64,000 nt of DNA. Origin: Planctomycetota bacterium (lineage in GTDB: Bacteria; Planctomycetota; JAJSAM01; JAJVHW01). Location of the stretch: positions 107,861 through 171,860 of the forward strand of contig JAJRPF010000070.1 of assembly GCA_024280885.1 (NCBI GenBank), written 5' to 3'. The number at the start of each line of letters is the position of its first letter. Within the stretch, counting starts at the first letter, position 1. The notes beneath the pieces are model-generated. The model did no database searches. It had not been told where the DNA came from and saw only the letters and a program-made list of their open reading frames with translations. A program made the translations under genes and the position numbers. Of this stretch, positions 6,386 to 52,598 are shown piece after piece.

Positions 6386-6614
6386 CACGGAGTGCGACCC
6401 GGTCACGGGTACACGACGCGTGGTGAGATGGACGATCGGTGAGCGGCCGTTCAATGACGCGTGGGGGAGGTCCAAGTGCCCGCGAGAGAGTCCGAGCGGG
6501 CGTCCAGAGAAGTGCCTCGGACGCGATCCCCTATCCTCGGCTGAGCATGCGCACGGCACAGAGTATCCTCCGACTCACGTTGACGATTACGACCGCCGGA
6601 TCGAGGAGCCAGAC

Positions 6615-7076
6615 GTGGGCATGACAGACGACATCGACAGGGCATGGAAGCTGTTCGTCGATGCGCATTCGGCGTACGTCGCGGCGAGGATGGACCTGTT
6701 CGCGACGGGTGGGAACTCGGGAGGCCACCTGGTCGACGCCCTGCGGTCCCCCGGCCAACGGCCGGCCGCGCTGGAACTCCTCGAATTCCTGCCGGAAGCG
6801 GAGAGTCGCGCGTATCTCGCCGAACTCGTTGCTCTCGCTTCGTGGGTGCATGGCGACATACTCGCTGCGCGCCACCTCATTGGCCGCATGGACCGCGAGT
6901 GGGTCATGGGGCGAATCGACGCCGTCGTCGTCTCCATGCTCGATGACGAGGAGTCATACCGACGGTTCGCCGAACTGTACGTCGAACTCGGAGGTGATCT
7001 GCTCTCATCGCACTTGCGCCGGTGCGCGGAGCACGCCGATCCGGAGGTTCGCGAGATCGCCGCCGACTTCGCGTGA
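6615..7076 (+). CDS. Hypothetical all-alpha cytoplasmic protein
   Basis: GAGGAG 5 nt upstream of the GTG at 6615 (ATG at 6621). Composition non-shadow (MTDDIDRAWKLFVDAH...). The upstream part of track ORF 6420..7076 looks non-coding. Confidence 0.45.
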   Translation: MGMTDDIDRAWKLFVDAHSAYVAARMDLFATGGNSGGHLVDALRSPGQRPAALELLEFLPEAESRAYLAELVALASWVHGDILAARHLIGRMDREWVMGRIDAVVVSMLDDEESYRRFAELYVELGGDLLSSHLRRCAEHADPEVREIAADFA

Positions 7077-7395
7077 CTTGCGCAGCTCGCGACGTCCTGG
7101 AGTCTCGAGCATTCCGTGCCAGGCTCGTCGGCGCGCCTGGCGAAGCGCCCGAGCTGACATTCGGCTGCGTCGCGCTCCACTGTGTATGGAGCGACGCGTC
7201 GTCATCGTTCGTGGACGATGATCGTTCCGCGCCACGAGCATGCCGTCGCTCGCGCCCGCGTTGCCCCGGCGACTCGGCGTCGCATCTTAGTCCCTGTGTA
7301 GGGCTCGGAGTGACGTTGTGCGCCGCGCCGATGCCGTTGACAGGCTCGTCAGATCGCCATCCACACGGTCATGCCGCGAGAGTGCGCAGCACTGC

Positions 7396-7431
7396 GTTGA
7401 CACAATGTGCCACAGACCCTAGCTTGGCCCC
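7396..7431 (+). promoter_or_regulatory. Candidate sigma70-type promoter for parDE (TTGACA ... TAGCTT)
   Basis: TTGACA at 7396, 17-nt spacer, then a weak -10 TAGCTT, 7 nt before the parD ATG. Called by eye only. Confidence 0.2.
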
Positions 7432-7704
7432 ATGGCGTCTCGCACGACCCTGAACGTCTCGCTCACTCCGGAACTTGGTCGCTTCATCGAGAGCCGACTG
7501 CGGTCCGGGAAGTACCAGACCGCGAGCGAGGTGGTGCGCGAGGCGCTGCGCCTGCTCGAGTCCCGGGGCCGCGAGCCGGTCGCGGGCGTCGAGGAGTTGC
7601 GAACCGAGATCGAATTGGGTCTCGATCAATTGCGTCGAGGCGAGGCCGTCGATGGAGACGAGTTCTTCGATGCCTTGCAGGCCCGTCGCAACGGCACGGG
7701 CTGA
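7432..7704 (+). CDS. parD: ParD-family ribbon-helix-helix antitoxin
   Basis: MASRTTLNVSLTPELGRFIESRLRSGKYQTASEVVREALRLLE matches the ParD/CopG antitoxin signature. A ParE gene follows 6 bp downstream. Confidence 0.8.
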   Translation: MASRTTLNVSLTPELGRFIESRLRSGKYQTASEVVREALRLLESRGREPVAGVEELRTEIELGLDQLRRGEAVDGDEFFDALQARRNGTG

Positions 7705-7710
7705 CCGCCG

Positions 7711-8010
7711 ATGAGCGGATTCGTCCTCTCGCCCGCGGCCGCGGCCGATATCGAGGACATCGCGTCGTTCCTGGACGATCACGCATCGCACGCAACGGAT
7801 TCAGTGCTCACCGCTCTGCGCGGATCGATGACGCGCCTCGCCGAACGACCTGGCCTCGGACATCTTCGCGAGGACCTCGCGGACGAACCGCTGCGCTTCT
7901 ACGCCGTCTGGAGCTACCTGGTCATCTACCGCGTCGCTGCGCGCGTCGAGATAGTGCGCGTGATTCACGCTGCGCGCGACGTGGCCGACGAGCTCAGCGA
8001 CTCCTCGTAG
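7711..8010 (+). CDS. parE: ParE/RelE-family toxin
   Basis: 99 aa with ...PGLGHLREDLADEPLRFYAVWSYLVIYRV..., a ParE-like fold signature. Paired with parD. Confidence 0.8.
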   Translation: MSGFVLSPAAAADIEDIASFLDDHASHATDSVLTALRGSMTRLAERPGLGHLREDLADEPLRFYAVWSYLVIYRVAARVEIVRVIHAARDVADELSDSS

Positions 8011-8106
8011 CACACCCCGGTCGACACGAACCTCGCTCCCAATCTCCTACCCTGCCTCTACCTGCCGACAGACCGCCCAGCGACCCGCTCATCCGCGAGG
8101 ACCAAG

Positions 8107-8757
8107 ATGCCCCAGCCCATCGAACTCGTGATTTTCGACTGCGATGGTGTCCTCGTGGACAGCGAGCGCCTCGCGGTGCGCATCGATGCACTCGTTCTCG
8201 CGCGCATGGGATGGCCGCTGTCGGAGTCGGAGATCATCGAGCGCTTCGTGGGCCGCTCCGATGCCTACATGCGCGAGGAGGTTGGGAAACACATCGGTCG
8301 CGAACTGGCCGAGGATTGGGACGCGGAGTTTTCGGGCCTCTACCGCGAGACGTTCGAGAACGAGCTCCGCCCGGTGGACGGCATCGTCGATGCGCTCGAC
8401 GAGCTGTCACTTCCCACGTGCGTGGCATCGAGCGGCAGCCATCGGAAGATGCGCTTCACACTTGGGCTGACGGGTCTTTGGGATCGCTTCGACGGGCTGA
8501 TCTTCAGCGGAGATGAAGTCGAGAATGGGAAGCCCGCTCCCGACCTCTTCCTCCACGCCGCCGATCGCATGGGAGTTGCGCTGGCGGCGTGCGCCGTCAT
8601 CGAGGACAGCAGATTTGGGGTCGCAGCCGCGCGCGCCGCGGGAATGCGTGCCTTCGGATTTGCGGGCGGATTGACGAGCGCGGAGCGACTCGCCGGACCC
8701 GGTACGAGAGTCTTCGACAAGATGCGGGAGCTTCCCCGCCTGCTCGCCGCGTCGTAA
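8107..8757 (+). CDS. HAD-IA family hydrolase (beta-phosphoglucomutase-like)
   Basis: ELVIFDCDGVLVDSE (motif I DxDGV), SSGS, ENGKPAPD and EDS motifs. Confidence 0.85.
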   Translation: MPQPIELVIFDCDGVLVDSERLAVRIDALVLARMGWPLSESEIIERFVGRSDAYMREEVGKHIGRELAEDWDAEFSGLYRETFENELRPVDGIVDALDELSLPTCVASSGSHRKMRFTLGLTGLWDRFDGLIFSGDEVENGKPAPDLFLHAADRMGVALAACAVIEDSRFGVAAARAAGMRAFGFAGGLTSAERLAGPGTRVFDKMRELPRLLAAS

Positions 8758-12912: not shown

Positions 12913-15102
12913 CTATCTGGGCGTGACGACGGGGTTCACCGGCAGCGCGCCGCCGCGCTTTCCCGCCCACTCGCGCATGGCATCGGCGAGTCCCTGCACA
13001 CGTGCGAGGGCGGCCAGGCGAGCCTTCACGTCTGCGTCGGCCGATGTGTCCGCGGCCCACGCACTGTCGGCCCACTTCTCGATGCCCGCGTCCGAGAGGC
13101 GGAAGACCGCGCCGTCGGTGCTCGCGACGATCGTCTGTCCGACCGGCGAGATCTCCGTCGTGCGATCTCCGAGTGGGAAGCGATCGGCCGGGAGACCGTC
13201 GCGCGCGAGAACATCCTCGGCCCACGTCGCGTAGATGTCGGGGCGCGGCGCGGCGGTGTCAAATGCGTCGGCGTCGATCGAGTAGGGGAACATGCGGCGG
13301 CCGCCTTGCAGGTAGCGGTCGGCGTACCACCGCACGCGTCCGTAGCTCGCCGTGTAGGCTGACCACTCGCTCGCTCGGGCGAGTCCGTCGTCGCCGTAGA
13401 GCACGCTGCGTGGACGGAACACCCCGGCCAGCGGGTCGTACCAACGGTTCTCGCCGTACGTGCGCGGCGCCGGATACCAGTTGCCGTTGCGCAACATCCC
13501 CCGACGGTCCCAGCCATTGCCGTGGACTGGAACGCCCTTGTGCAGATAGACGCCGCGGTAGGGGCCGAAGGCGGCGAAGCGGAAGCCCTTCTCGCCTGCG
13601 CCGAGAGGCTTGCACCACGTCACATGATACGAGCCCGTGGACTCGGGCACGCTCGCCAGTTCCTCCGGCAGCTCCTCGACGGCTGTCCAGCGCCCCTTTC
13701 CGGAGGTGGAACGGAACCACGCGCCGCGCACGCAGACCAGGTACTCGCCACCGAATTGGAATTCCGCGTCCTCGGTACTCGTGACCTTGCGGTACTCCAC
13801 CTTCTCGATCGGCGACGTGACGATCTCGCCCTTCTCGTACTTCACGCTCGCGAGAATGCGGCGATGGAGCAGTACGCGCTCGGGCAAGAGCGCGCGAGCC
13901 GCCGCCTCGGCGGCCTGCGGGGTGCCGGGCACGGAGTAGAGTACGTGGGCGCGCGAGTGCGTGACCGGGATGCTTGCGAACTCGTCCGGGAGCGAGCCGT
14001 AATGCTGCGCCCACGGGCCGTCGATCTCGTCAGCCGCGAACCAGCGCCCCGAGATCAGCAGGAAGTACTTCCCCGTCCGCGGGTGGAAGAGGAGATCGCT
14101 CGCCGTGTTGGCGACGATCATCAGCTTGACTCCCGGGACCAGCGTGAAGAGCGGATCGCCGAGCAGACTCACGAGCTCCGCCGGTTCCTCCGTGACGATG
14201 ACCTCCGGCAGCGTCTCCGGGCGTTCCGGAGGTGTCTTGCCGACGCGCTTGTTGTAGCGGCGTGTACCCGGAACGAAACGGCGCACGTGGCCCCGTGGGT
14301 GATCGACGGGGAGTTGGGTCAGGACGATCGGGAGTTTGCCGTCGAACCAGGTCCACGGTCCTTCGAGCTTGGGCGCTGCGGCCCAGAAGCCGTCAACGAG
14401 CATCAGCCAACGATCGTCCCGCAGCTCGTGGAAGATGTCGGCGGCGGAGTTCAGGACGTATTCGAGTGGGAAGCTCTCGACCTGTCCCAGGACCGGTTCA
14501 CCGTCGATCTGGACGAGCATCGCCGGCGTGCGGCGGACGTGGATCTTTGGCGGGCGCGAGCTGACCTTGCCGGTGAGCGCATCGCCCTCCGGCGCGGCGC
14601 CTGGACGATCCGTGATCAGCTCGAGACGGATCAGGGTCTCTGCGGGCAGGTGATCCGGCAAGCCCTCGGCGGCCGCCTTCGCCAGGACTTCGTCGAGCCC
14701 GGGGAAGGCCGTCTTGACGACGGACAGGCCATCGATTGCTGCCAGCCGCGCGTTCAGATCGAGGTGCGCGACGCCCGCCAGTTCCACGGCGCCCCACGTC
14801 AGACGCCCGACGGCGTCGGTGATCTCGACCGGGACACGCAGTGTGATGGTGCCGTCCGCTGCCGTGTATCCGAGCACCGCAGGCTCGTGGAAGGCGAAGC
14901 GGACGCCGCCCGCCTCGACCTTGCGCGGGAACTCCCATGCCGACTGGGCTGCGACTTCTGCGGCCCCGCTGCCCGACGCTGCGGTGCCCGATGCTGCGTT
15001 GTCCGGCTTGGCCGGGTCCTCGCCGCGGGCGGTCGATGCCGGCGTGGCGGCCAACAGGAACGTGGCTGAGAGGACCAGGGCGAGCGACGAGCGTGACAAC
15101 AT
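12913..15102 (-). CDS. Secreted hypothetical protein with three Trp-rich internal repeats
   Basis: Start ATG at 15100-15102 preceded by GGAAGGAG. Signal peptide MLSRSSLALVLSATFLLAATPASTA. Repeated motif x(Y/W)xLxxxGxWFxxxxxxGPWxxxxxLPxE x3. The track ORF extending to 15825 is an upstream shadow. Confidence 0.7.
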   Translation of the reverse strand: MLSRSSLALVLSATFLLAATPASTARGEDPAKPDNAASGTAASGSGAAEVAAQSAWEFPRKVEAGGVRFAFHEPAVLGYTAADGTITLRVPVEITDAVGRLTWGAVELAGVAHLDLNARLAAIDGLSVVKTAFPGLDEVLAKAAAEGLPDHLPAETLIRLELITDRPGAAPEGDALTGKVSSRPPKIHVRRTPAMLVQIDGEPVLGQVESFPLEYVLNSAADIFHELRDDRWLMLVDGFWAAAPKLEGPWTWFDGKLPIVLTQLPVDHPRGHVRRFVPGTRRYNKRVGKTPPERPETLPEVIVTEEPAELVSLLGDPLFTLVPGVKLMIVANTASDLLFHPRTGKYFLLISGRWFAADEIDGPWAQHYGSLPDEFASIPVTHSRAHVLYSVPGTPQAAEAAARALLPERVLLHRRILASVKYEKGEIVTSPIEKVEYRKVTSTEDAEFQFGGEYLVCVRGAWFRSTSGKGRWTAVEELPEELASVPESTGSYHVTWCKPLGAGEKGFRFAAFGPYRGVYLHKGVPVHGNGWDRRGMLRNGNWYPAPRTYGENRWYDPLAGVFRPRSVLYGDDGLARASEWSAYTASYGRVRWYADRYLQGGRRMFPYSIDADAFDTAAPRPDIYATWAEDVLARDGLPADRFPLGDRTTEISPVGQTIVASTDGAVFRLSDAGIEKWADSAWAADTSADADVKARLAALARVQGLADAMREWAGKRGGALPVNPVVTPR

Positions 15103-15285
15103 GCGGGACTCCTTCCCCTCACGGGGACGCTCAAAGTAACCAACTGGGGTTCGGAAACGTGTGGGTTCCCGCCCGGTCTCTTCCGCCGCCGCGCTCGGAT
15201 CTGCGTTCGGGAGGCCGCCGACGCACCGCTGCGCGAACCGACGAAACGCACGCGCGGCGCGCAGCCGGGCGTATCCTCGTGCGCG

Positions 15286-16119
15286 ATGCCACGCACTCGC
15301 TTCGTCGCGCTCTACACGGACTTCGGCACCACCGACATCTACGCCGGAGTCGTGCATGGCATCATTCGTACGCTCGCACCGGAGGCTGGCGTGATCGACC
15401 TGACGCACGGGATCGCGGCGGGGGATCGCCATGGCGGTGCGTTCATGCTCCTCTCTGCGGTGCCTTTTCTCCCGCGTGGCACGGTGCATCTCTGTGTCGT
15501 GGACCCCGGCGTGGGCACCGAGCGGCGGATCGTTGCCGTGCGGGCGGGCGGCCACACGTTCGTCGGCCCGGACAACGGCGTCTTCGCCCCCGTGGTCGAG
15601 GCTCTGGGCGGCGTCACGGATCTGCGCTACGTCACGAATGAGCGGCTGATGCGAAGGCGGCGCAGCGCGACGTTCGAGGCGCGTGACATCATGGCCCCCG
15701 TCGTGGCGCATCTCGTGCGCGGGATCGACTTCGCCGCGGTGGGGGAGGTTGCCGACGAACTGGTGCCGCTGCCGGGCTTCGCTCCCGAGGTGGCCGCCAC
15801 GCAGGCGCGTGGGCGTGTGTTGCACGTGGATCGCTATGGGAACGTCGTCACGAACCTACTCCCCGGCGAGTTGCACGGCCCGCGCGGCAGCTGGCAACTC
15901 GAGGTGGGCGGGTGCGTCGTGGATCGCTGGGGTACGACGTTCGGGGATGTCGCTCCCGGCGAGCTGGTGGTCTATCCCGGCAGCGTCGGATTCCTGGAGG
16001 TCGCGCAGCGCGACGGCGACGCAGCCGGGCGGCTTGGCGTCTCGATCGGGGACGCGGTGCTGGCGCGGCCAGGCGGCGGCGCGAACAGTGTGGGCGCAGC
16101 GCCGGGAGAGAGCGCGTGA
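15286..16119 (+). CDS. SAM hydroxide adenosyltransferase family protein (DUF62; fluorinase/chlorinase-like SAM hydrolase)
   Basis: ALYTDFGTTDIYAGVVHGII...DLTHGI...GAFML...GTVHLCVVDPGVGTERR...GGHTFVGPDNGV matches the DUF62 signature. Confidence 0.8.
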   Translation: MPRTRFVALYTDFGTTDIYAGVVHGIIRTLAPEAGVIDLTHGIAAGDRHGGAFMLLSAVPFLPRGTVHLCVVDPGVGTERRIVAVRAGGHTFVGPDNGVFAPVVEALGGVTDLRYVTNERLMRRRRSATFEARDIMAPVVAHLVRGIDFAAVGEVADELVPLPGFAPEVAATQARGRVLHVDRYGNVVTNLLPGELHGPRGSWQLEVGGCVVDRWGTTFGDVAPGELVVYPGSVGFLEVAQRDGDAAGRLGVSIGDAVLARPGGGANSVGAAPGESA

Positions 16120-17402
16120 GGACGCTCTATCTCGACTGCTTCTCGGGCATCGCGGGCGACATGTTCGTCGGGGCGCTCATCGATCTCGGTGCGCCCTTCG
16201 AAACGATCCGGGCCGGATTGGAACGCCTGGGGCCGATGGGGCCGGGCGGCTTCGAAGTCGGCGTCCGCGAAGTGGAGCGCGGAGCCATTCGCGCCACGAA
16301 GTTCGATGTGCGCGTCGCCGGACACGTGGCCGACTCGCCCGAGCACGTGGACCATCAGCATGGGCATCATCACGCGGATCACGCTGATCCGCTGCGCGCC
16401 GCACACGGACCGCAGGCCGGAGCCGCCGATCTCCCCGCGCGTGGATTGCGCGAGGTGCGTGCCCTGATCGAGCCGGCGGATCTGCCCGATACGGTGAAGA
16501 CGCGCGCTCTCGCGGCATTCTCGCTGCTGGCCGAGGCCGAGGGGCGTATCCACGGTCGTCCGGCAGACCAGGTGCACTTTCACGAAGTCGGCGCCGTGGA
16601 TGCGATCTGCGACATCGTCGGCGTCGCGCTCGCCCTCGACGCTCTCGATGTGCAGGACGTGCGCGTCGGTCCACTCCGCGTCGGATCCGGGTTTGTCCAA
16701 TGCGCGCACGGCAAGCTGCCGGTGCCCGCTCCCGCGACGCTGGAATGCCTGACCGGCTTCGACGTGCGGATGGATGCCGGCAGGGGCGAGCTCATCACGC
16801 CGACCGGCGCGTGTCTTCTCGCCGCGCTCGCCACGCCGATCATTTCCGCGACGGGCGGCGCGCTCGGCGAGTTCCGCGTCGAGCGCGTCGGCTACGGGGC
16901 GGGAACGCGCAACCCGGAGGGCGTCCCGAACGTCCTGCGGGCTGTCCTTGGAGAGACGCCGGAGTCGGACGCCGAGCCGTTGATGGAACTGCGTACGAAC
17001 GTCGATCATCTGCCCCCGAACGTGTTGGCCGCGGGGCTCGAAAGCGTGCGCGCTGCCGGGGCGCTCGAGGTCTTCACGACGCCGTGCACGATGAAGAAGG
17101 GGCGCAGCGGACACCTCATCACGGTGCTCGTACCGGCGTCGCGCCGCGCCGACGCCGAGACGGCACTCTTCCGCGAGACGGGAACGCTCGGCATCCGTGC
17201 GTTCCCCGTCACACGGAGCGTGCTCTCCCGCGCGTTCGAGACGGTGGCGACGCCGTGGGGTGCGGTACACGTCAAGCTGGGTCGCCATCGCGGTCGCGTC
17301 ACCAGCCGCGAGCCGGAACTGGAAGACTGCCGACGTCTCGCGGGCGAGCACGGCGTCGCGGTCGCGGACGTGGTGGCCGCAGCCCGGCGCGCTGATGGGT
17401 AG
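16116..17402 (+). CDS. larC: LarC-family nickel insertase (DUF111, nickel-pincer cofactor biosynthesis type)
   Basis: GTG start at 16116 overlaps the upstream stop (GTGA). N-terminus MRTLYLDCFSGIAGDMFVGALIDLG is the LarC hallmark. The His-rich stretch HVDHQHGHHHADH fits a Ni site. Confidence 0.8.
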   Translation: MRTLYLDCFSGIAGDMFVGALIDLGAPFETIRAGLERLGPMGPGGFEVGVREVERGAIRATKFDVRVAGHVADSPEHVDHQHGHHHADHADPLRAAHGPQAGAADLPARGLREVRALIEPADLPDTVKTRALAAFSLLAEAEGRIHGRPADQVHFHEVGAVDAICDIVGVALALDALDVQDVRVGPLRVGSGFVQCAHGKLPVPAPATLECLTGFDVRMDAGRGELITPTGACLLAALATPIISATGGALGEFRVERVGYGAGTRNPEGVPNVLRAVLGETPESDAEPLMELRTNVDHLPPNVLAAGLESVRAAGALEVFTTPCTMKKGRSGHLITVLVPASRRADAETALFRETGTLGIRAFPVTRSVLSRAFETVATPWGAVHVKLGRHRGRVTSREPELEDCRRLAGEHGVAVADVVAAARRADG

Positions 17403-17425
17403 GGGCGACACGGAGCCAGCGATAC

Positions 17426-17514
17426 GGAGCCAGGACAGTTCCGGCAGAGTTCGGGGCACGGGTAACGCAAGCACGACGGCGCTCTCCGAACTCTGCCGGA
17501 ATTGTCCTGGCTCC
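17426..17514. repeat. Palindromic structured repeat, copy 2
   Basis: GGAGCCAGGACAGTTCCGGCAGAGTTCGG ... CCGAACTCTGCCGGAATTGTCCTGGCTCC. Arms differ from copy 1 at paired positions (ACTT/GAAGT versus GTTC/GGAAT) while preserving base pairing. Confidence 0.7.
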
Positions 17515-17544
17515 GTATCGAGCCGTCCCGGGTAGCTTCGCCCC

Positions 17545-18918
17545 GTGAGTACGAACGAAGCCCCCCCGCACGCGATGGACGTCCTCCTGGTCGAGGACGA
17601 GAAGACGATTGCGATCACCTTGCGTGATGCACTCGAAGAGGACGGCCACAACGTCACCGTGGCCTGCGATGGCCTCGAGGGGCGCCGCCACATCGAGGAC
17701 CGCACGTACGACGTCGTGATCACGGACCTCAAGATGCCCGGGATGCCGGGGATGGAGGTCCTGCGCCTCGCGAAGAGCAACTCGCCGGATACCGAGGTCA
17801 TCGTAATGACCGGCTACGGCACCGTCGAGACCGCCGTCGAGGCGATGAAGTCGGGTGCCTACGAGTACATCTTGAAGCCCTTCTCGAACGAGGAGGTCGT
17901 GCACTACCTGCGGCGCATCGCCGCGCAACGCAAGTTGGTCGCAGAGAACCGCTCGCTGAAGGAACAACTCGGCCGCGCCCAGAGTCTGGAAGGGCTGATC
18001 GGTCAGTCGCGCCCCATGCGCGAGGTTTTCCAGACCATCCGCCTCGTCGCGCCGGGCGACGCGCGCATCCTGGTCGTCGGCGAGAGTGGTACGGGCAAGG
18101 AACTCGTCGCGCGCGCCATCCACAATCTCTCCGAGCGCCGCGCGAAGCCGCTGGTTGCGATCTCGTGCGCGTCGGTTCCAGAGACGCTGCTCGAGGACAC
18201 GCTCTTCGGCCACGAGGCGGGCGCGTACACAGGGGCGACCGACCGTCGCATCGGGCGCTTCGAGTACGCCGATGGCGGGACCGTGTTGCTCGATGACATC
18301 GACGACATGCCGCTCTCCACGCAGGTGAAGCTCCTGCGCGTCCTGCAAGAGGGCGAGGTGGAGCGGCTTGGGTCCGCCGCGCCGCTCCACGTCGACGTGC
18401 GCGTGATCGCTGCGACGAAGGTCGATCTTCTCGATGCGGTCGAAGACGGTCGCTTTCGCCGTGATCTCTACTATCGCCTGAACGTCGTCCCCATCGAGCT
18501 GCCCCCGCTGCGCGATCGCGAGGACGATCTCAAGCTACTGGCGCAGCACTTCATCGAGTGCTTCGGTAAGAAGACGGCGTTCCGGATCGAAGACGAACTC
18601 GTCGACGAGATGCTGCGCTACTCGTGGCCAGGGAACGTCCGCGAACTCGAGCACTCGATCGAGCGTGCGATCGCGCTGGCGGGCGGCAACGAGGTACTGC
18701 AGCGGGTCCACATTCTCGGAACGAAGGCCGTCCCCACGCGTCGCGCCGCGCCTGCGCGCGTCACCACGCTGCGCGAAGCCGTCGAGGAGGCCGAGAAGGG
18801 GGCGATCCGCGCCGCTCTCGAACACACCGGCGGCCGCAAGGCCGAGGCCGCGAAGGTCCTGGGCATCTCCCGCAAGAATCTGTGGGAGAAGATGAAGGCG
18901 TACGAACTCGAGGCCTGA
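17545..18918 (+). CDS. Sigma-54-dependent response regulator (NtrC family: REC + AAA+ + Fis HTH)
   Basis: Receiver motifs (DVLLVEDE, VITDLKMPGM), AAA+ GESGTGKE, GAFTGA-like (GHEAGAYTGA) and a C-terminal HTH. Confidence 0.85.
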   Translation: MSTNEAPPHAMDVLLVEDEKTIAITLRDALEEDGHNVTVACDGLEGRRHIEDRTYDVVITDLKMPGMPGMEVLRLAKSNSPDTEVIVMTGYGTVETAVEAMKSGAYEYILKPFSNEEVVHYLRRIAAQRKLVAENRSLKEQLGRAQSLEGLIGQSRPMREVFQTIRLVAPGDARILVVGESGTGKELVARAIHNLSERRAKPLVAISCASVPETLLEDTLFGHEAGAYTGATDRRIGRFEYADGGTVLLDDIDDMPLSTQVKLLRVLQEGEVERLGSAAPLHVDVRVIAATKVDLLDAVEDGRFRRDLYYRLNVVPIELPPLRDREDDLKLLAQHFIECFGKKTAFRIEDELVDEMLRYSWPGNVRELEHSIERAIALAGGNEVLQRVHILGTKAVPTRRAAPARVTTLREAVEEAEKGAIRAALEHTGGRKAEAAKVLGISRKNLWEKMKAYELEA

Positions 18919-29896: not shown

Positions 29897-29946
29897 CGCA
29901 GCGCGTCCCGTGGCGACTTGCCCTCGCACGGGCATGCGTATAGACT

Positions 29947-30294
29947 ATGCGCATGCTGTCATCTCGTGTGCATCTTCTCCTGGAGCCGAGTGAGCGTGAG
30001 CGTTTCGTGCGTGCCGCCGATCGTTGTGGCGAGTCACTGAGTACGTGGCTGCGGCGAGCCGGTCGCGAGCGATTGGAGCGCGAGGACCGCAGCGGCGTCA
30101 TGTCGGTGTCCGAACTGCGCGCATTCTTCGCGGACTGCAATGCGCGTGACGACGGCGTGCCGGAGCCGGATTGGGACGAGCAGAAGCGCGTGATCGAGTG
30201 CTCGGTCCGCTCTGGCGCGGGCGACGCCGGAACGACTGACTCGGAGACGCCTGATGTCGCCAGCTGCGAGACGCGAGAGCGTGGCGAGTCGTGA
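29947..30294 (+). CDS. vapB: Ribbon-helix-helix antitoxin (VapB-like)
   Basis: RVHLLLEPSERERFVRAADRCGESLSTWLRRAGRERLE is RHH-like. Stop overlaps the GTG start of a PIN gene. Confidence 0.6.
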   Translation: MRMLSSRVHLLLEPSERERFVRAADRCGESLSTWLRRAGRERLEREDRSGVMSVSELRAFFADCNARDDGVPEPDWDEQKRVIECSVRSGAGDAGTTDSETPDVASCETRERGES

Positions 30295-30674
30295 TCTTCG
30301 TCGATACCAACGTGTTCATGTATGCGGTCGGCGGGAGGCACCCGTTGCGCGCGCAGGCGCAGGCGTTCTTCACCGCGAGTCAAGGACCGGGCGGCGAGCC
30401 GCTGTGTACGTCTGCCGAGGTGCTCCAGGAACTGCTGCACGCGTATCTGGCGGTCGGGCGGACAAGCACTCTCGACGACGCGCTGCGTCTCGCGCGCAGC
30501 ACGATGGGCGAGGTCTTCGCGATCGAGGCCGACGACGTGCTCTTCGCTCGTGATCTGAACACATCTCTCCCGGGCCTGAGCGCGCGCGATCTCCTGCACG
30601 TCGCGACTTGCCGTCGCCGTGGGATCGACTCCGTCAAGACCTACGATCGCGCGCTGGCCGCCATTTTCGCGTAG
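30291..30674 (+). CDS. vapC: PIN-domain toxin VapC
   Basis: MIFVDTNVFMYA start with downstream acidic residues. Confidence 0.85.
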   Translation: MIFVDTNVFMYAVGGRHPLRAQAQAFFTASQGPGGEPLCTSAEVLQELLHAYLAVGRTSTLDDALRLARSTMGEVFAIEADDVLFARDLNTSLPGLSARDLLHVATCRRRGIDSVKTYDRALAAIFA

Positions 30675-48597: not shown

Positions 48598-48674
48598 TGG
48601 TGGGCGATACTGGACTTGAACCAGTGACCCCCTGCGTGTCGAGCAGGTGCTCTAGCCAACTGAGCTAATCGCCC
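48598..48674 (-). tRNA. tRNA-Val (anticodon GAC)
   Basis: Manual cloverleaf: GGGCGAT/ATCGCCC acceptor, GCTC-AGTTGGCTA-GAGC D arm, CCTGC-TCGACAC-GCAGG anticodon arm, ACTGG-TTCAAGT-CCAGT T arm, CCA encoded. Confidence 0.85.
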
Positions 48675-50143: not shown

Positions 50144-50252
50144 AGCTCGATTCCGGTCACGAAGTGCGTGTCCGGGCTCAAGTTGAACACGTCGAATTGT
50201 AGATAGGTATGCGCGGGCGCCTCCCCTGATGGGAGCGGCTCGCGGAGGCACC

Positions 50253-50627
50253 ATGCAACTCGATGTCACTCGCAATGGCGACCGGATGGTCGTCAGATTC
50301 TCGGAGCGCGTGGATCTCGAAGGCGAGAGCTCCGATCGGTTCAAGAACCAGCTCAAGGACATCGTCTCGCAGGGCGGGAAGTACCTTGTCGTTGACCTTG
50401 GTCACGTCGGTTTCATCGATAGCTGTGGACTCGGAGCGCTGATCTCCGCGCTGAAGGTGCTGCGCAGATCGGGTGGGTCGCTCGTGCTGGCGAACATCTC
50501 GGAGCCGGTCGAGGCGGTTCTGCGCATCACGCGTCTGTCGCGCGTCTTCGATATCTGCCCCGACGTGCAGGACGCCCTTGTTCTCTCGTCCACGCATGCG
50601 AACTCGTCGGGTGAGTCGACTCGATGA
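50253..50627 (+). CDS. STAS-domain anti-sigma-factor antagonist (RsbV/SpoIIAA-like)
   Basis: ...LVVDLGHVGFIDSCGLGALISA... Confidence 0.75.
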   Translation: MQLDVTRNGDRMVVRFSERVDLEGESSDRFKNQLKDIVSQGGKYLVVDLGHVGFIDSCGLGALISALKVLRRSGGSLVLANISEPVEAVLRITRLSRVFDICPDVQDALVLSSTHANSSGESTR

Positions 50628-52039
50628 ACGAGCTGCGGCTTCAGTTGGTCGGGAGCGATCCGGAGACGGAGGCTCGACTGCGTCGACGCTTCGAGCGCTC
50701 CGGCGTGCGCATCGCGGAATCCGTTCCGCTGCACGACGCACCGTCACGGCTGGCCAACTCGGATCCTGACGTCGTCCTTCTCGACGCGGGCGAGGGCGGA
50801 GCCGCTGCCGCCGACGGATTGGTGGCCTTGAAGGAGGCGTTCCCGGAGTTGCCGGTGATCTTGCTCGCGGCGGCCGAGGATGTGGCGTCGCTCGCGGGGG
50901 CCGTGCGCGGCGGAGTGTTCGACGTCGTCCCGAAACCGCTGGATCTCACGCGCCTCGACCTCGCGATCAAGAACGCCTCGCAAATGCACCGGCTTCTGCG
51001 ACGTGTGCAGCAGTTGCAAGAACGCGGCGCGGCGCCGAGTGGGTTCCGTGGGATCGTCGGAGAGTCGAGCGCGGTGCGGGATGTCATCGCGTCCATCGAG
51101 CAGGTCGCCCGAACCGACGTGGGCGTGATCCTCGCGGGGGAGAGTGGCACGGGGAAGGGACTCGTCGCGCGCACCATCCACGACTCGGGCGAGCGCAAGG
51201 CGCGCTCGTTCGAGGCGTTCCATGCAGCTGCGATCCCCGCGTCTCTGCTCGAGAGCGAGCTCTTCGGCCACGAACCTGACGCCCTTGAGGGCGCGACCGC
51301 GCCGTACCCTGGCTGCTGTGAGCGCGCTGATGGGGGCTCGCTCTTCATCGGTGAACTCTGCGATCTCTCGCTGGACGTCCAGGCCGTCCTGCTGCAATTC
51401 CTGCGCGAGGGGAGTTTCCGCAGGTTGGGTGGCACGTCGCCGATGACCGCAGACGTCCGCGTCATTGCCGCCACGAGCCACGATCCGGCGGAGGCGATCT
51501 CCAGTGGCCGATTGCGCGAAGACCTCTACTACCAGTTGAACGTCGTCACGATTGCCACGCCGCCGTTGCGACGCCGCACCGGCGACGTCCCGCTCCTCGC
51601 ACAGCACTTCCTGGCGCGCTTCTCGGGCAAGTACGGACGCTTCTTCCAGGGCTTCGACGCGGAGGCCCTCGAGTCCCTGTCTCGACACGCGTGGCCTGGC
51701 AACATCCGCGAACTCGAGAACGTGATCGAGCGGATTGTCGTGCTCTACGACGGGCCGACCGTGACGGCGCGCATGCTGCCGCCCGAAGTCCTCGATGCCG
51801 CGCCTCATGTGGATCTCGATCGCCACGATCGCGGTCTCGACGAGATCCTGCCATTCGTCGAGATCGAGCGCCGCGAGATCGTGCGCGCGCTGCGCATCTG
51901 CGAAGGCAACGTGTCGCATGCCGCGGAGCGGTTGGGGATCGGGCAAGCGACGCTCTACCGCAAGATCAAGAAGTTCGGTCTCCGCTCTCGACGCGGCTTT
52001 CGCGAGCCGGCAGCAGACCCCCTGGGACAATCTGGGTGA
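50624..52039 (+). CDS. Sigma-54-dependent transcriptional activator (REC-like N-domain + AAA+ + HTH)
   Basis: GESGTGKG, GAFTGA-like (GHEPDALEGA), ESFRRLGG. ATGA overlap with the STAS gene stop. Confidence 0.85.
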   Translation: MNELRLQLVGSDPETEARLRRRFERSGVRIAESVPLHDAPSRLANSDPDVVLLDAGEGGAAAADGLVALKEAFPELPVILLAAAEDVASLAGAVRGGVFDVVPKPLDLTRLDLAIKNASQMHRLLRRVQQLQERGAAPSGFRGIVGESSAVRDVIASIEQVARTDVGVILAGESGTGKGLVARTIHDSGERKARSFEAFHAAAIPASLLESELFGHEPDALEGATAPYPGCCERADGGSLFIGELCDLSLDVQAVLLQFLREGSFRRLGGTSPMTADVRVIAATSHDPAEAISSGRLREDLYYQLNVVTIATPPLRRRTGDVPLLAQHFLARFSGKYGRFFQGFDAEALESLSRHAWPGNIRELENVIERIVVLYDGPTVTARMLPPEVLDAAPHVDLDRHDRGLDEILPFVEIERREIVRALRICEGNVSHAAERLGIGQATLYRKIKKFGLRSRRGFREPAADPLGQSG

Positions 52040-52154
52040 ACTCGTTCGGCCGCAACCTGGCGCGGGCGATCGGCGCGCTGCTGCGGCAGGTGATGCGCGA
52101 CAGATGTCTGGTTCCGCTTCCCGCGCGGGTTCGCCCGCGTCGCGGTGACCCGCG

Positions 52155-52598
52155 GTGAGCGCGTCCATGCCGGTCGTCAGTCTGGATCTCCCGGCAGAGC
52201 GTTCGTCACCGGCCGCCGCGCGAGCGCTGCTCTCCGAGGTCGCGCGCGAGTGTCGGTCGGTGCGACTCTCGGAAGCGGAGATCGCGGAACTGAGTGTCGT
52301 CCTTCACGAGGCGTGCACGAATGTGATCGAGCACGCGCTGGGTGGGGATCGAGAGCGCCGGTTCCGCGTGGAATTCCATCGGCTCGCCACGGGTCTAGCG
52401 ATTGTCATCGAGGACGATGGAGCTGCCTACTCTCTCCCGGAGCGAGCGCCGCCCACGCCGGAGGATCTTCACGAACGCGGTTACGGCTTGCACATCATGC
52501 GCTCGTGGTCGGATCGCGTCCGCCTGGAACGACGTGGAGGCGTCAACCGCTTGCACCTGTTCCGTGCGTACGAAATCCGCGCGGGAGACCGGGCATGA
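52155..52598 (+). CDS. Anti-sigma regulatory factor / Ser-protein kinase (RsbW/SpoIIAB-like GHKL ATPase)
   Basis: ...LHEACTNVIEHA... (N-box) and ...DDGAAY...GYGLHIM... (G-boxes). Confidence 0.7.
   Translation: MSASMPVVSLDLPAERSSPAAARALLSEVARECRSVRLSEAEIAELSVVLHEACTNVIEHALGGDRERRFRVEFHRLATGLAIVIEDDGAAYSLPERAPPTPEDLHERGYGLHIMRSWSDRVRLERRGGVNRLHLFRAYEIRAGDRA

What the first reader, a model, noticed from the sequence alone, without database searches (positions are those of the whole stretch)
15286..17402. DUF62 SAM hydroxide adenosyltransferase translationally coupled to a LarC-like nickel insertase, without larA/larB/larE in the window
The two genes overlap (GTGA). LarC normally works with LarB and LarE to build the nickel-pincer nucleotide cofactor for LarA. 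Here its only partner in the window is a SAM-cleaving DUF62 enzyme.

LarC homologs occur in genomes lacking LarA, with unknown function. A conserved DUF62-DUF111 pair would point to an undescribed small-molecule or cofactor pathway that uses SAM-derived adenosine and a nickel/CTP-dependent step. A His-rich segment (HVDHQHGHHHADH) in the LarC-like protein supports metal handling.
Basis: partly seen in the sequence, partly recalled or inferred. Interest (0 to 1): 0.5.

Follow-up and report, generated by a model that had tools for sequence, protein, structure and literature searches.

The report
DUF62–LarC operon in one Planctomycetota lineage
A SAM-hydrolase-family gene and a standard nickel-insertase gene (LarC) overlap by four bases and stay paired throughout one Planctomycetota lineage, but nothing shows that they form a new pathway.

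Summary
A DUF62 gene (15286-16119) and a full-length LarC gene (16116-17402) overlap in GTGA. No larA, larB or larE lies in the 64 kb window.

LarC is canonical. It passes both NCBIfam LarC cut-offs and keeps every residue shown essential in Moorella LarC. The His-rich stretch is a normal LarC feature.

The pair, with an NTGA overlap, is present in all 12 loci whose LarC is at least 46% identical to this one. These form one monophyletic LarC clade; the named members are annotated Planctomycetota. The genes flanking the pair differ between loci.

Outside the clade the pair is absent. Only 1 of 80 LarC loci from other genomes has it, and that one belongs to the clade. None of seven unlinked DUF62 loci has LarC nearby. 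No true fusion protein exists; the one apparent fusion is a frameshift artefact.

A LarC with no larB or larE nearby is common: 17 of 35 loci with full flanks.

Two oddities remain:
- The DUF62 partners diverge unusually fast.
- In the window's sub-clade, 28% of them have lost the catalytic His. The window has Glu.

Whether larB and larE exist elsewhere in this genome could not be tested.

The parts
15103..15285 (.). 183-bp divergent intergenic region between the upstream minus-strand gene and the DUF62 gene. It is the presumed promoter region of the bicistron (inferred).
   Evidence: Gene ends. No sigma-70 consensus or sigma-54 consensus and no Rfam element were found.
15286..16119 (+). DUF62 / SAM hydroxide adenosyltransferase family gene (277 aa). 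Asp73 and Arg80 of the Asp-Arg-His triad are kept; the His is replaced by Glu131 (TFEARD instead of TFHGRD).
   Evidence: Pfam PF01887 and PF20257. Matches to solved DUF62 structures: 2zbu E 7e-37, 2cw5, 2wr8. NCBIfam (R)-SAM hydrolase models hit below their equivalog cut-offs. Motif survey.
16104..16112 (+). Purine-rich Shine-Dalgarno-like GGGAGAGAG inside the 3' end of the DUF62 gene, 4 nt upstream of the LarC start.
   Evidence: Equivalent GGAGG-like runs occur in all 12 related junctions. Function is inferred.
16116..16119 (+). GTGA start/stop overlap. This suggests translational coupling (inferred).
   Evidence: NTGA is conserved in 12 of 12 loci.
16116..17402 (+). Full-length LarC (428 aa), with LarC1 and LarC2 in one reading frame.
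   Evidence: PF01969 E 5.5e-129. TIGR00299.2 scores 201 bits (cut-off 90) and NF052512 scores 127 bits (cut-off 50). PDB 12bi (Moorella LarC) E 1.9e-80; PDB 6bwo (LarC2) E 7.7e-15.
16344..16382 (+). His-rich stretch HVDHQHGHHHADH (LarC residues 77-89), in the variable His-rich insert of LarC1.
   Evidence: Alignment A1 shows His-rich inserts of varying length in nearly all homologues. PMC13510736 reports 21 His residues in L. plantarum LarC1.
16974..17390 (+). LarC2 (CTP-binding) domain, residues about 287-425, including the MKKGR motif (residues 326-330).
   Evidence: Alignment to 6bwo, and NF052512 above its cut-off. Invariant columns.

Best explanation
This is a two-gene operon that arose once and has been kept in one bacterial lineage. 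The named members are annotated Planctomycetota.

Gene 1 encodes a DUF62-family enzyme. Characterised members of this family hydrolyse S-adenosylmethionine to adenosine and methionine, preferentially the inactive (R)-sulfonium epimer.

Gene 2 encodes a canonical LarC. LarC CMPylates pyridinium-3,5-bisthiocarboxylate mononucleotide with CTP in its LarC2 domain. It then inserts Ni through the LarC1 His cluster and acidic pocket, giving the nickel-pincer nucleotide cofactor.

LarC starts on a weak GTG or TTG codon in 10 of 12 loci. This start overlaps the DUF62 stop and follows an internal GGAGG-like site, so LarC is probably translated by ribosomes finishing DUF62, in a fixed ratio.

Shown: the family assignments, conservation of the essential LarC residues, the conserved overlap, and the restriction to one lineage.

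Inferred:
- The enzymatic activities.
- Translational coupling.
- That larB and larE lie elsewhere in the genome, as they do for about half of LarC genes.
- That the two enzymes share expression rather than a pathway.
For: - LarC is orthodox. It passes both NCBIfam LarC cut-offs. It aligns end to end with Moorella LarC. Window residues D15, R109, E142, H146, H154, H156, E157, D162, D166, H198 and E225 match Moorella D15, R71, E104, H108, H116, H118, E119, D124, D128, H160 and E187, whose substitution reduces or abolishes activity (PMC13510736).
- DUF62 keeps TDFG, DPGVGTxR, PDNG, DRxGN and GSxGxLEVA.
- The pair with an NTGA overlap is in 12 of 12 loci of the clade.
- LarC of the two sub-clades groups together in 299 of 300 NJ bootstraps.
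- Shared wider synteny (PGM upstream, NtrC-type regulator downstream) points to a single origin.
- Outside the clade, 79 of 80 LarC loci lack DUF62; 34 have larB and 31 have larE within 10 kb.
- 17 of 35 fully flanked LarC loci have neither larB nor larE nearby.
- The closest outgroup LarCs (Myxococcota L027, L062) have larB directly upstream but no larE nearby, so lar genes are scattered in related lineages.
- No true fusion appears among the best 150 of 1.84 billion representatives.
- No paper links the two families.
Against: - The junction is invariant while the genes on either side of the pair differ between loci. That pattern is expected of a selected functional unit.
- DUF62 partners of the two sub-clades are only 41% identical, no closer than to unlinked DUF62s (42-43%). 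Their LarCs are 53% identical, against 41-43% to other LarCs.
- The catalytic His is replaced by E, Q or D in 17 of 61 sub-clade A DUF62 clusters, against 3 of 56 outside. Both points hint at a changed role for DUF62.
- Presence of larB and larE in this genome is assumed, not shown.
Confidence: 0.55

Rival explanations
1. In this lineage DUF62 is an accessory component of nickel-pincer cofactor synthesis or delivery. It could bind or process an adenosine-bearing precursor such as P2TAD or an NPAD-type cofactor. It could act as a carrier or partner of LarC. It could tune LarC, which needs stoichiometric amounts. LarB and LarE would still act upstream.
For: - The NTGA overlap is strictly kept in 12 of 12 loci despite turnover of the genes on either side of the pair.
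- DUF62 diverges faster once linked, and both sub-clades sit further from distant outgroups (27% vs 30.6% identity).
- The catalytic His is relaxed in sub-clade A.
- DUF62 occupies the slot that larB holds in the sister lineages.
- LarC accepts an AMP-bearing analogue, P2TAD (PMC13510736).
- In Sulfolobus the DUF62 gene sits in an operon with NMN adenylyltransferase, another pyridine-nucleotide enzyme (bioRxiv 10.1101/2025.08.29.672840).
Against: - The pair has a single origin and sits in a region of conserved wider synteny, so its persistence may be inertia; overlapping genes are hard to separate.
- There is no fusion, and no second lineage with the pair.
- All SAM-binding motifs are retained apart from the His, and sub-clade B keeps the His.
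- No known chemistry links SAM cleavage to the LarC reaction.
Confidence: 0.22
2. The lineage lacks larB and larE. Its LarC, together with DUF62, builds a different metallated small molecule from a SAM-derived adenosyl unit.
For: No lar partner lies in the 64 kb window or in the flanks (up to 10 kb, less on short contigs) of the other clade loci with DNA (and the Pfam tables). No cofactor user (LarA, AKR or OCD type) is adjacent either.
Against: - Every residue tied to P2TMN/P2TCD handling and Ni insertion is conserved, and LarC shows no unusual divergence.
- Half of ordinary LarC genes are equally isolated.
- Published surveys report genomes carrying larB, larC and larE together, with or without larA (PMC11796402).
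- The phylum has lar genes: Brocadia locus L039 has LarC and LarE, and an Isosphaera LarA homologue is used in PMC11796402.
Confidence: 0.07
3. The two sub-clades acquired or replaced their DUF62 gene independently next to LarC. Such convergent or repeated recruitment would imply strong selection for the linkage.
For: DUF62 A+B monophyly appears in only 4 of 300 bootstraps, while A and B are each recovered in 300 of 300. A-B identity equals background, whereas the LarCs are clear sisters.
Against: - The backbone of the DUF62 tree is star-like, so any particular pairing is rarely recovered.
- A shared rare PGF motif (window residues 163-165; F165 in 0 of 68 outgroups) favours common descent.
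- The junction layout is the same in both sub-clades.
- Faster evolution in both lineages explains the distances.
Confidence: 0.1

Closest known systems
LarC, pyridinium-3,5-bisthiocarboxylate mononucleotide nickel insertase (L. plantarum LarC1/LarC2, PDB 6BWO; M. thermoacetica LarC, PDB 12bi)
   Same: Full-length domain match. Both NCBIfam LarC models are passed above cut-off. All experimentally essential LarC1 residues, the His cluster, the His-rich insert and the LarC2 MKKxR motif are conserved.
   Different: It is a single ORF as in Moorella, not the frameshifted LarC1/LarC2 of L. plantarum. It is not next to larB or larE. It is preceded by an overlapping DUF62 gene.
DUF62 SAM hydroxide adenosyltransferase / (R)-S-adenosyl-L-methionine hydrolase (PH0463 2WR8, TTHA0338 2CW5, MJ1651 22uy, Salinispora and Sulfolobus SAM hydrolases)
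   Same: Two-domain architecture, with E values of 1e-30 to 1e-37 to solved members. The Asp and Arg of the catalytic triad and the nucleoside-binding motifs are conserved.
   Different: The triad His is Glu131 here, and E, Q or D in 28% of sub-clade A. NCBIfam equivalog cut-offs are not reached. The gene is translationally coupled to LarC.
Classical lar operons (larA-larE-larB-larC, e.g. Paenibacillus locus L028; larE-larC-larB in Acidobacteriaceae; larB-larC in Myxococcota L027 and L062)
   Same: They contain an orthologous LarC, often with tightly packed or overlapping neighbours.
   Different: Here the gene directly upstream of larC is DUF62, not larB. No other lar gene lies in the window or in the flanks fetched for related loci.
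larBCE clusters without larA that led to NphT (AKR-type cofactor user) and the NPAD-dependent ornithine cyclodeaminase (PMC13524815)
   Same: LarC occurs without LarA nearby. The same guilt-by-association logic is applied to its neighbours.
   Different: Those clusters contain LarB and LarE plus a plausible cofactor-binding oxidoreductase. This locus has neither, and DUF62 is not an NAD-like cofactor binder.
Sulfolobus acidocaldarius saci0718-0720 operon (triphosphate tunnel metalloenzyme, DUF62 SAM hydrolase, NMN adenylyltransferase; bioRxiv 10.1101/2025.08.29.672840)
   Same: A DUF62 gene in a conserved operon with an enzyme acting on pyridine mononucleotides.
   Different: The partner enzyme and the domain of life both differ. 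No functional link has been shown there either.

Membership tests
LarC (PF01969 / TIGR00299; EC 4.99.1.12) | Full-length match to the family models above curated cut-offs, covering both the LarC1 and LarC2 parts | tested here: met
   PF01969 431 bits, profile positions 1-374 of 375. TIGR00299.2 201.4 bits (cut-off 90). NF052512 126.7 bits (cut-off 50).
LarC (PF01969 / TIGR00299; EC 4.99.1.12) | LarC1 acidic pocket and His cluster shown essential by mutagenesis in Moorella LarC (D15, R71, E104, H108, H116, H118, E119, D124, D128, H160, E187) | tested here: met
   The window has D15, R109, E142, H146, H154, H156, E157, D162, D166, H198 and E225 at the aligned positions (residue list from PMC13510736).
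LarC (PF01969 / TIGR00299; EC 4.99.1.12) | CTP-binding residues of LarC2 | tested here: inconclusive
   Domain-level homology to CTP-bound LarC2 (6bwo, E 7.7e-15). All LarC2 columns invariant in 15 homologues are present, including D297, MKKGR 326-330, R361, K387, P400, E401 and C405. The published list of CTP contacts (PMC6093250) was not held, so individual contacts were not checked.
LarC (PF01969 / TIGR00299; EC 4.99.1.12) | Co-occurrence with LarB and LarE in the same genome (source of the P2TMN substrate) | not testable with these tools
   Both are absent from the window and from all clade flanks. The rest of the genome could not be read. A LarB search matched no contig known to carry a clade locus.
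LarC (PF01969 / TIGR00299; EC 4.99.1.12) | CTP-dependent nickel insertion activity | not testable with these tools
   Requires an assay, for example the E. coli Duet complementation of PMC11796402.
DUF62 SAM hydrolase (PF01887 + PF20257) | Two-domain SAM_HAT_N and SAM_HAT_C architecture | tested here: met
   E 1.8e-47 and 6.3e-21, both profiles matched at full length. Solved homologues at E 1e-30 to 1e-37.
DUF62 SAM hydrolase (PF01887 + PF20257) | Asp-Arg-His triad proposed to activate water (PH0463 D68, R75, H127). The residue roles are recalled from Deng et al. 2009, which was not readable here. | tested here: not met
   D73 and R80 are present. The His position is Glu131 (TFEARD). It is E, Q or D in 17 of 61 sub-clade A clusters against 3 of 56 outside. 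Glu might still act as a base, so activity is uncertain.
(R)-SAM hydrolase equivalogs (NCBIfam NF058624, NF053629) | Score above the curated equivalog cut-off | tested here: not met
   178 bits against a cut-off of 350, and 129 bits against 470. These are narrow models, so this is family-level membership only.
Fluorinase / chlorinase | Match to the fluorinase equivalog and to halide-site features | tested here: not met
   TIGR04507 56 bits against a cut-off of 400. Fluorinases match only at the N-terminal region, E about 1e-17.

The most novel reading that the evidence does not exclude
In this Planctomycetota lineage DUF62 has been recruited as a dedicated partner of LarC. It is translationally coupled, fast-evolving and has a relaxed catalytic His. 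It would then act in a variant nickel-pincer cofactor route, for example by handling an adenosine-bearing precursor or product, or by replacing a missing lar function. It would not be a housekeeping SAM hydrolase.
Probability: 0.12. Interest if true: 0.7.

Novelty: new member of a known kind. Interest (0 to 1): 0.3.

Why it matters
Work on the nickel-pincer cofactor is actively using gene neighbourhoods of LarB, LarC and LarE to find new cofactor-dependent enzymes and accessory factors. A strictly conserved, overlapping DUF62-LarC operon is a cheap candidate to test in the existing E. coli Duet system.

If DUF62 affects cofactor synthesis, that would give DUF62 a second physiological role and add a component to a pathway thought to need only three enzymes. 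If not, the locus is an ordinary lineage-specific operon of two known enzymes.

The survey also gives a baseline: about half of LarC genes have no larB or larE within 10 kb. 'LarC alone in a window' should therefore not be read as an orphan.

Tried and rejected
1. Fusion protein as Rosetta-stone evidence. P0021 (676 aa, PF01887 + PF01969) looked like a fusion. Its DUF62 C-domain is replaced by Arg-rich out-of-frame text after GRVLHV, so it is a frameshift read-through. An exhaustive phmmer search of 1.84 billion representatives found no true fusion among the best 150 hits.
2. Finding larB in the same lineage. I searched with the sister-lineage LarB (L027) and compared contig lengths with clade contigs. 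There was no match, and only the top 120 hits are listed, so this is uninformative.
3. Look-up of the window's own LarC (P0001) to reach flanking DNA or the assembly name: not on record. The listing of cluster members gave no accession for it.
It yielded one more clade member (L087) and six unlinked DUF62 loci.
6. Regulatory elements upstream of the pair: no sigma-70 or sigma-54 consensus, and no riboswitch or other Rfam family.
7. Literature. No paper holds both LarC and DUF62. The supplement of the NphT paper is not held. The Deng 2009 and Desguin 2018 papers are not held.
8. GC3-based gene calling first picked the antisense ORF 15972-17813 over LarC. This is a high-GC artefact and was rejected on the Pfam evidence.
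Full report
**What is there**

The window has 67% G+C. ORF 15286-16119 (+) encodes a 277-aa protein. It matches both SAM hydroxide adenosyltransferase (DUF62) domains at full length (PF01887 E 1.8e-47; PF20257 E 6.3e-21). It resembles solved DUF62 structures at E 1e-30 to 7e-37.

From GTG 16116 to 17402 (+) runs a 428-aa protein that matches PF01969 (nickel insertion protein) over the whole profile (E 5.5e-129). The bases 16116-16119 read GTGA, so the start and stop codons overlap. GGGAGAGAG lies 4 nt upstream of the start.

A Pfam scan of about 50 GC3-selected ORFs found no LarA or LarB domain and no LarE-like PP-loop match in the window. jackhmmer over all six-frame ORFs and permissive tblastn also found none. 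The queries were LarA, LarB and LarE verified from a Paenibacillus lar operon.

**LarC is orthodox**

- It passes the curated NCBIfam cut-offs for both LarC1 (201 bits, cut-off 90) and LarC2 (127 bits, cut-off 50).
- It aligns end to end with Moorella thermoacetica LarC, whose cryo-EM structure is PDB 12bi (E 1.9e-80), and with L. plantarum LarC2, PDB 6bwo.
- The Moorella residues whose substitution reduces or abolishes activity are D15, R71, E104, H108, H116, H118, E119, D124, D128, H160 and E187 (PMC13510736). They correspond to window D15, R109, E142, H146, H154, H156, E157, D162, D166, H198 and E225. All are conserved, and all but H154 are invariant among the 15 aligned homologues.
- The His-rich insert (residues 77-89) is a normal LarC1 feature. 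Nearly all homologues have one, of variable length, and L. plantarum LarC1 has 21 His residues (PMC13510736). It adds nothing beyond the family assignment.
- The individual CTP contacts could not be checked because the source paper is not held. Every invariant LarC2 column, including MKKGR, is present.

**How far the pairing extends**

I looked up LarC homologues at decreasing identity:

| LarC identity to window | Loci |
|---|---|
| 64% | L001, L002 |
| 54% | L084, L085 |
| 50% | L083, L003, L097 |
| 46-47% | L086, L095, L096 |

With the near-identical fragment L087 and the window itself, that is 12 loci. All 12 have a DUF62 gene directly upstream with an NTGA overlap and a GGAGG-like run before it.

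The loci fall into two sub-clades:
- **A** (the window type): metG, a small ORF, a ~710-aa secreted protein on the minus strand, then DUF62-LarC, with an NtrC-type regulator directly downstream or within about 2 kb.
- **B**: alkaline phosphatase, beta-elimination lyase, PGM, TatD (minus), EboA (minus), DUF62-LarC, then variable genes; in three of the five loci (L003, L086, L096) an aminotransferase (minus), an SH3-domain protein, a histidine kinase and an NtrC-type regulator follow.

The gene downstream of LarC differs between many of these loci, and the gene upstream of DUF62 differs between the sub-clades. The junction never changes. Shared wider synteny (PGM upstream, an NtrC-type regulator downstream) and LarC monophyly (299 of 300 NJ bootstraps) point to one origin. 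Named members are annotated Planctomycetota.

**Outside the lineage the pairing is absent**

A scan of GTDB species representatives gave 80 LarC loci at 32-50% identity, from Acidobacteriota, Verrucomicrobiota, Bacillota, Bacteroidota, Myxococcota and others.
- Only L003, a clade member, has DUF62 within 10 kb.
- 34 have larB and 31 have larE.
- Of the 35 loci with full 10-kb flanks, 17 have neither larB nor larE.

So an isolated LarC is normal and does not suggest an orphan. From the DUF62 side, seven unlinked homologues (27-46% identity) have no LarC nearby.

The one apparent fusion protein (P0021) is a frameshift artefact. An exhaustive search of 1.84 billion representatives found no real fusion among the best 150 hits.

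No paper mentions both families. The literature reports that about 15% of genomes carry larB, larC and larE without larA (PMC11796402). It also now describes non-LarA cofactor users (PMC13524815).

**Two oddities**

First, the sister LarC lineages (Myxococcota L027 and L062) have larB in the slot directly upstream of larC, where this clade has DUF62 (NJ tree, the sister position is recovered in 127 of 300 bootstraps).

Second, the DUF62 partners evolve oddly:
- Within sub-clades they diverge about as fast as LarC: in A, 67% identity for DUF62 and 68% for LarC; in B, 69% and 77%.
- Between sub-clades they are only 41% identical, no closer than to unlinked DUF62s (42-43%). The LarCs are 53% identical, against 41-43% to other LarCs.
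- A+B monophyly for DUF62 is recovered in 4 of 300 bootstraps.
- Both sub-clades sit further from distant outgroups than unlinked DUF62s do (27% vs 30.6% identity).
- They share a rare PGF motif. I therefore favour accelerated divergence over independent recruitment, but this is unresolved.
- The His of the proposed Asp-Arg-His triad is Glu131 in the window. It is E, Q or D in 17 of 61 sub-clade A clusters, against 3 of 56 outside (Fisher p = 0.0012, not corrected for phylogeny). The sub-clade B members checked keep the His.

**Interpretation**

The best-supported reading is a lineage-specific, probably translationally coupled operon of two known enzymes: a DUF62-family SAM hydrolase and a canonical LarC. 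LarC's substrate would come from larB and larE elsewhere in the genome.

The invariant junction and the unusual DUF62 evolution keep a functional link possible. I put an accessory role in the pincer pathway at about 0.2, and a LarB/LarE-independent pathway at below 0.1.

The decisive test is a whole-genome search for larB, larE and larA in these assemblies.

Noticed in passing
window 15676-15678 (DUF62 residue 131): The His of the DUF62 Asp-Arg-His triad (TFHGRD) is Glu here (TFEARD). In the LarC-linked sub-clade A this position is E, Q or D in 17 of 61 clusters, against 3 of 56 (all Q) in unlinked DUF62s.
   Followed up: partly
L003, L086, L095-L097 compared with the window, L001, L002, L083, L084: DUF62 partners of the two sub-clades are no closer to each other (41%) than to unlinked DUF62s, although their LarCs are clear sisters (53%). 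This could be accelerated evolution or replacement of DUF62.
   Followed up: partly
P0021 (JGI 3300041967, 676 aa): The apparent DUF62-LarC fusion is a frameshift read-through. The DUF62 C-terminal domain is replaced by Arg-rich out-of-frame sequence running into the LarC frame.
   Followed up: yes
window 12913-15102 (-): A 729-aa protein with an apparent N-terminal signal peptide (by eye) has no Pfam or NCBIfam match. It is transcribed divergently from DUF62 and conserved (47-58% identity) at the same position in L001 and L002, where tblastn was run. L083 and L084 carry a 705-713-aa ORF with no Pfam match at the same position. L003 has no homologue, and the other sub-clade B loci show EboA at that position instead.
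   Followed up: partly
L086 7242-9049, L095 5289-7063, L096 5265-7081, L097 2496-4180, L003 about 6590-8686: In four of the five sub-clade B loci an EboA gene and a TatD-family (EboB-like) gene sit divergently next to DUF62-LarC. In L003 only the TatD match was found. No other ebo genes were seen nearby.
   Followed up: no
L027 1281-3365; L062 8667-11002: The closest outgroup LarCs (Myxococcota) have larB immediately upstream of larC, in the slot DUF62 occupies in the clade.
   Followed up: partly
window 17545-18918 (+) and 50615-52039 (+): Two NtrC-type sigma-54 activators. The first lies just downstream of LarC, and its homologue stays within about 6 kb of the pair in most clade loci. No sigma-54 promoter consensus was found in the window. 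The second is flanked by a STAS-domain gene (50187-50627) and a HATPase_c_2-domain gene (52149-52598).
   Followed up: partly
window 7423-8010 (+) and 29944-30674 (+): A ParD/ParE toxin-antitoxin pair lies at 7423-8010. A PIN-domain gene (30255-30674), preceded by a small ORF (29944-30294), may be a second toxin-antitoxin pair.
   Followed up: no
window 15972-17801 (-): A 609-aa antisense ORF lies across LarC, and there are many other long shadow ORFs. These are high-GC artefacts. A GC3-based picker chose this one over the real LarC frame.
   Followed up: yes
window 48601-48674 (-): The single tRNA gene is the only Rfam match above gathering score in the window.
   Followed up: no
literature (bioRxiv 10.1101/2025.08.29.672840): In Sulfolobus acidocaldarius the DUF62 SAM hydrolase gene lies in a conserved operon with a triphosphate tunnel metalloenzyme and NMN adenylyltransferase. 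This is a second, independent neighbourhood link between DUF62 and pyridine-nucleotide enzymes.
   Followed up: no
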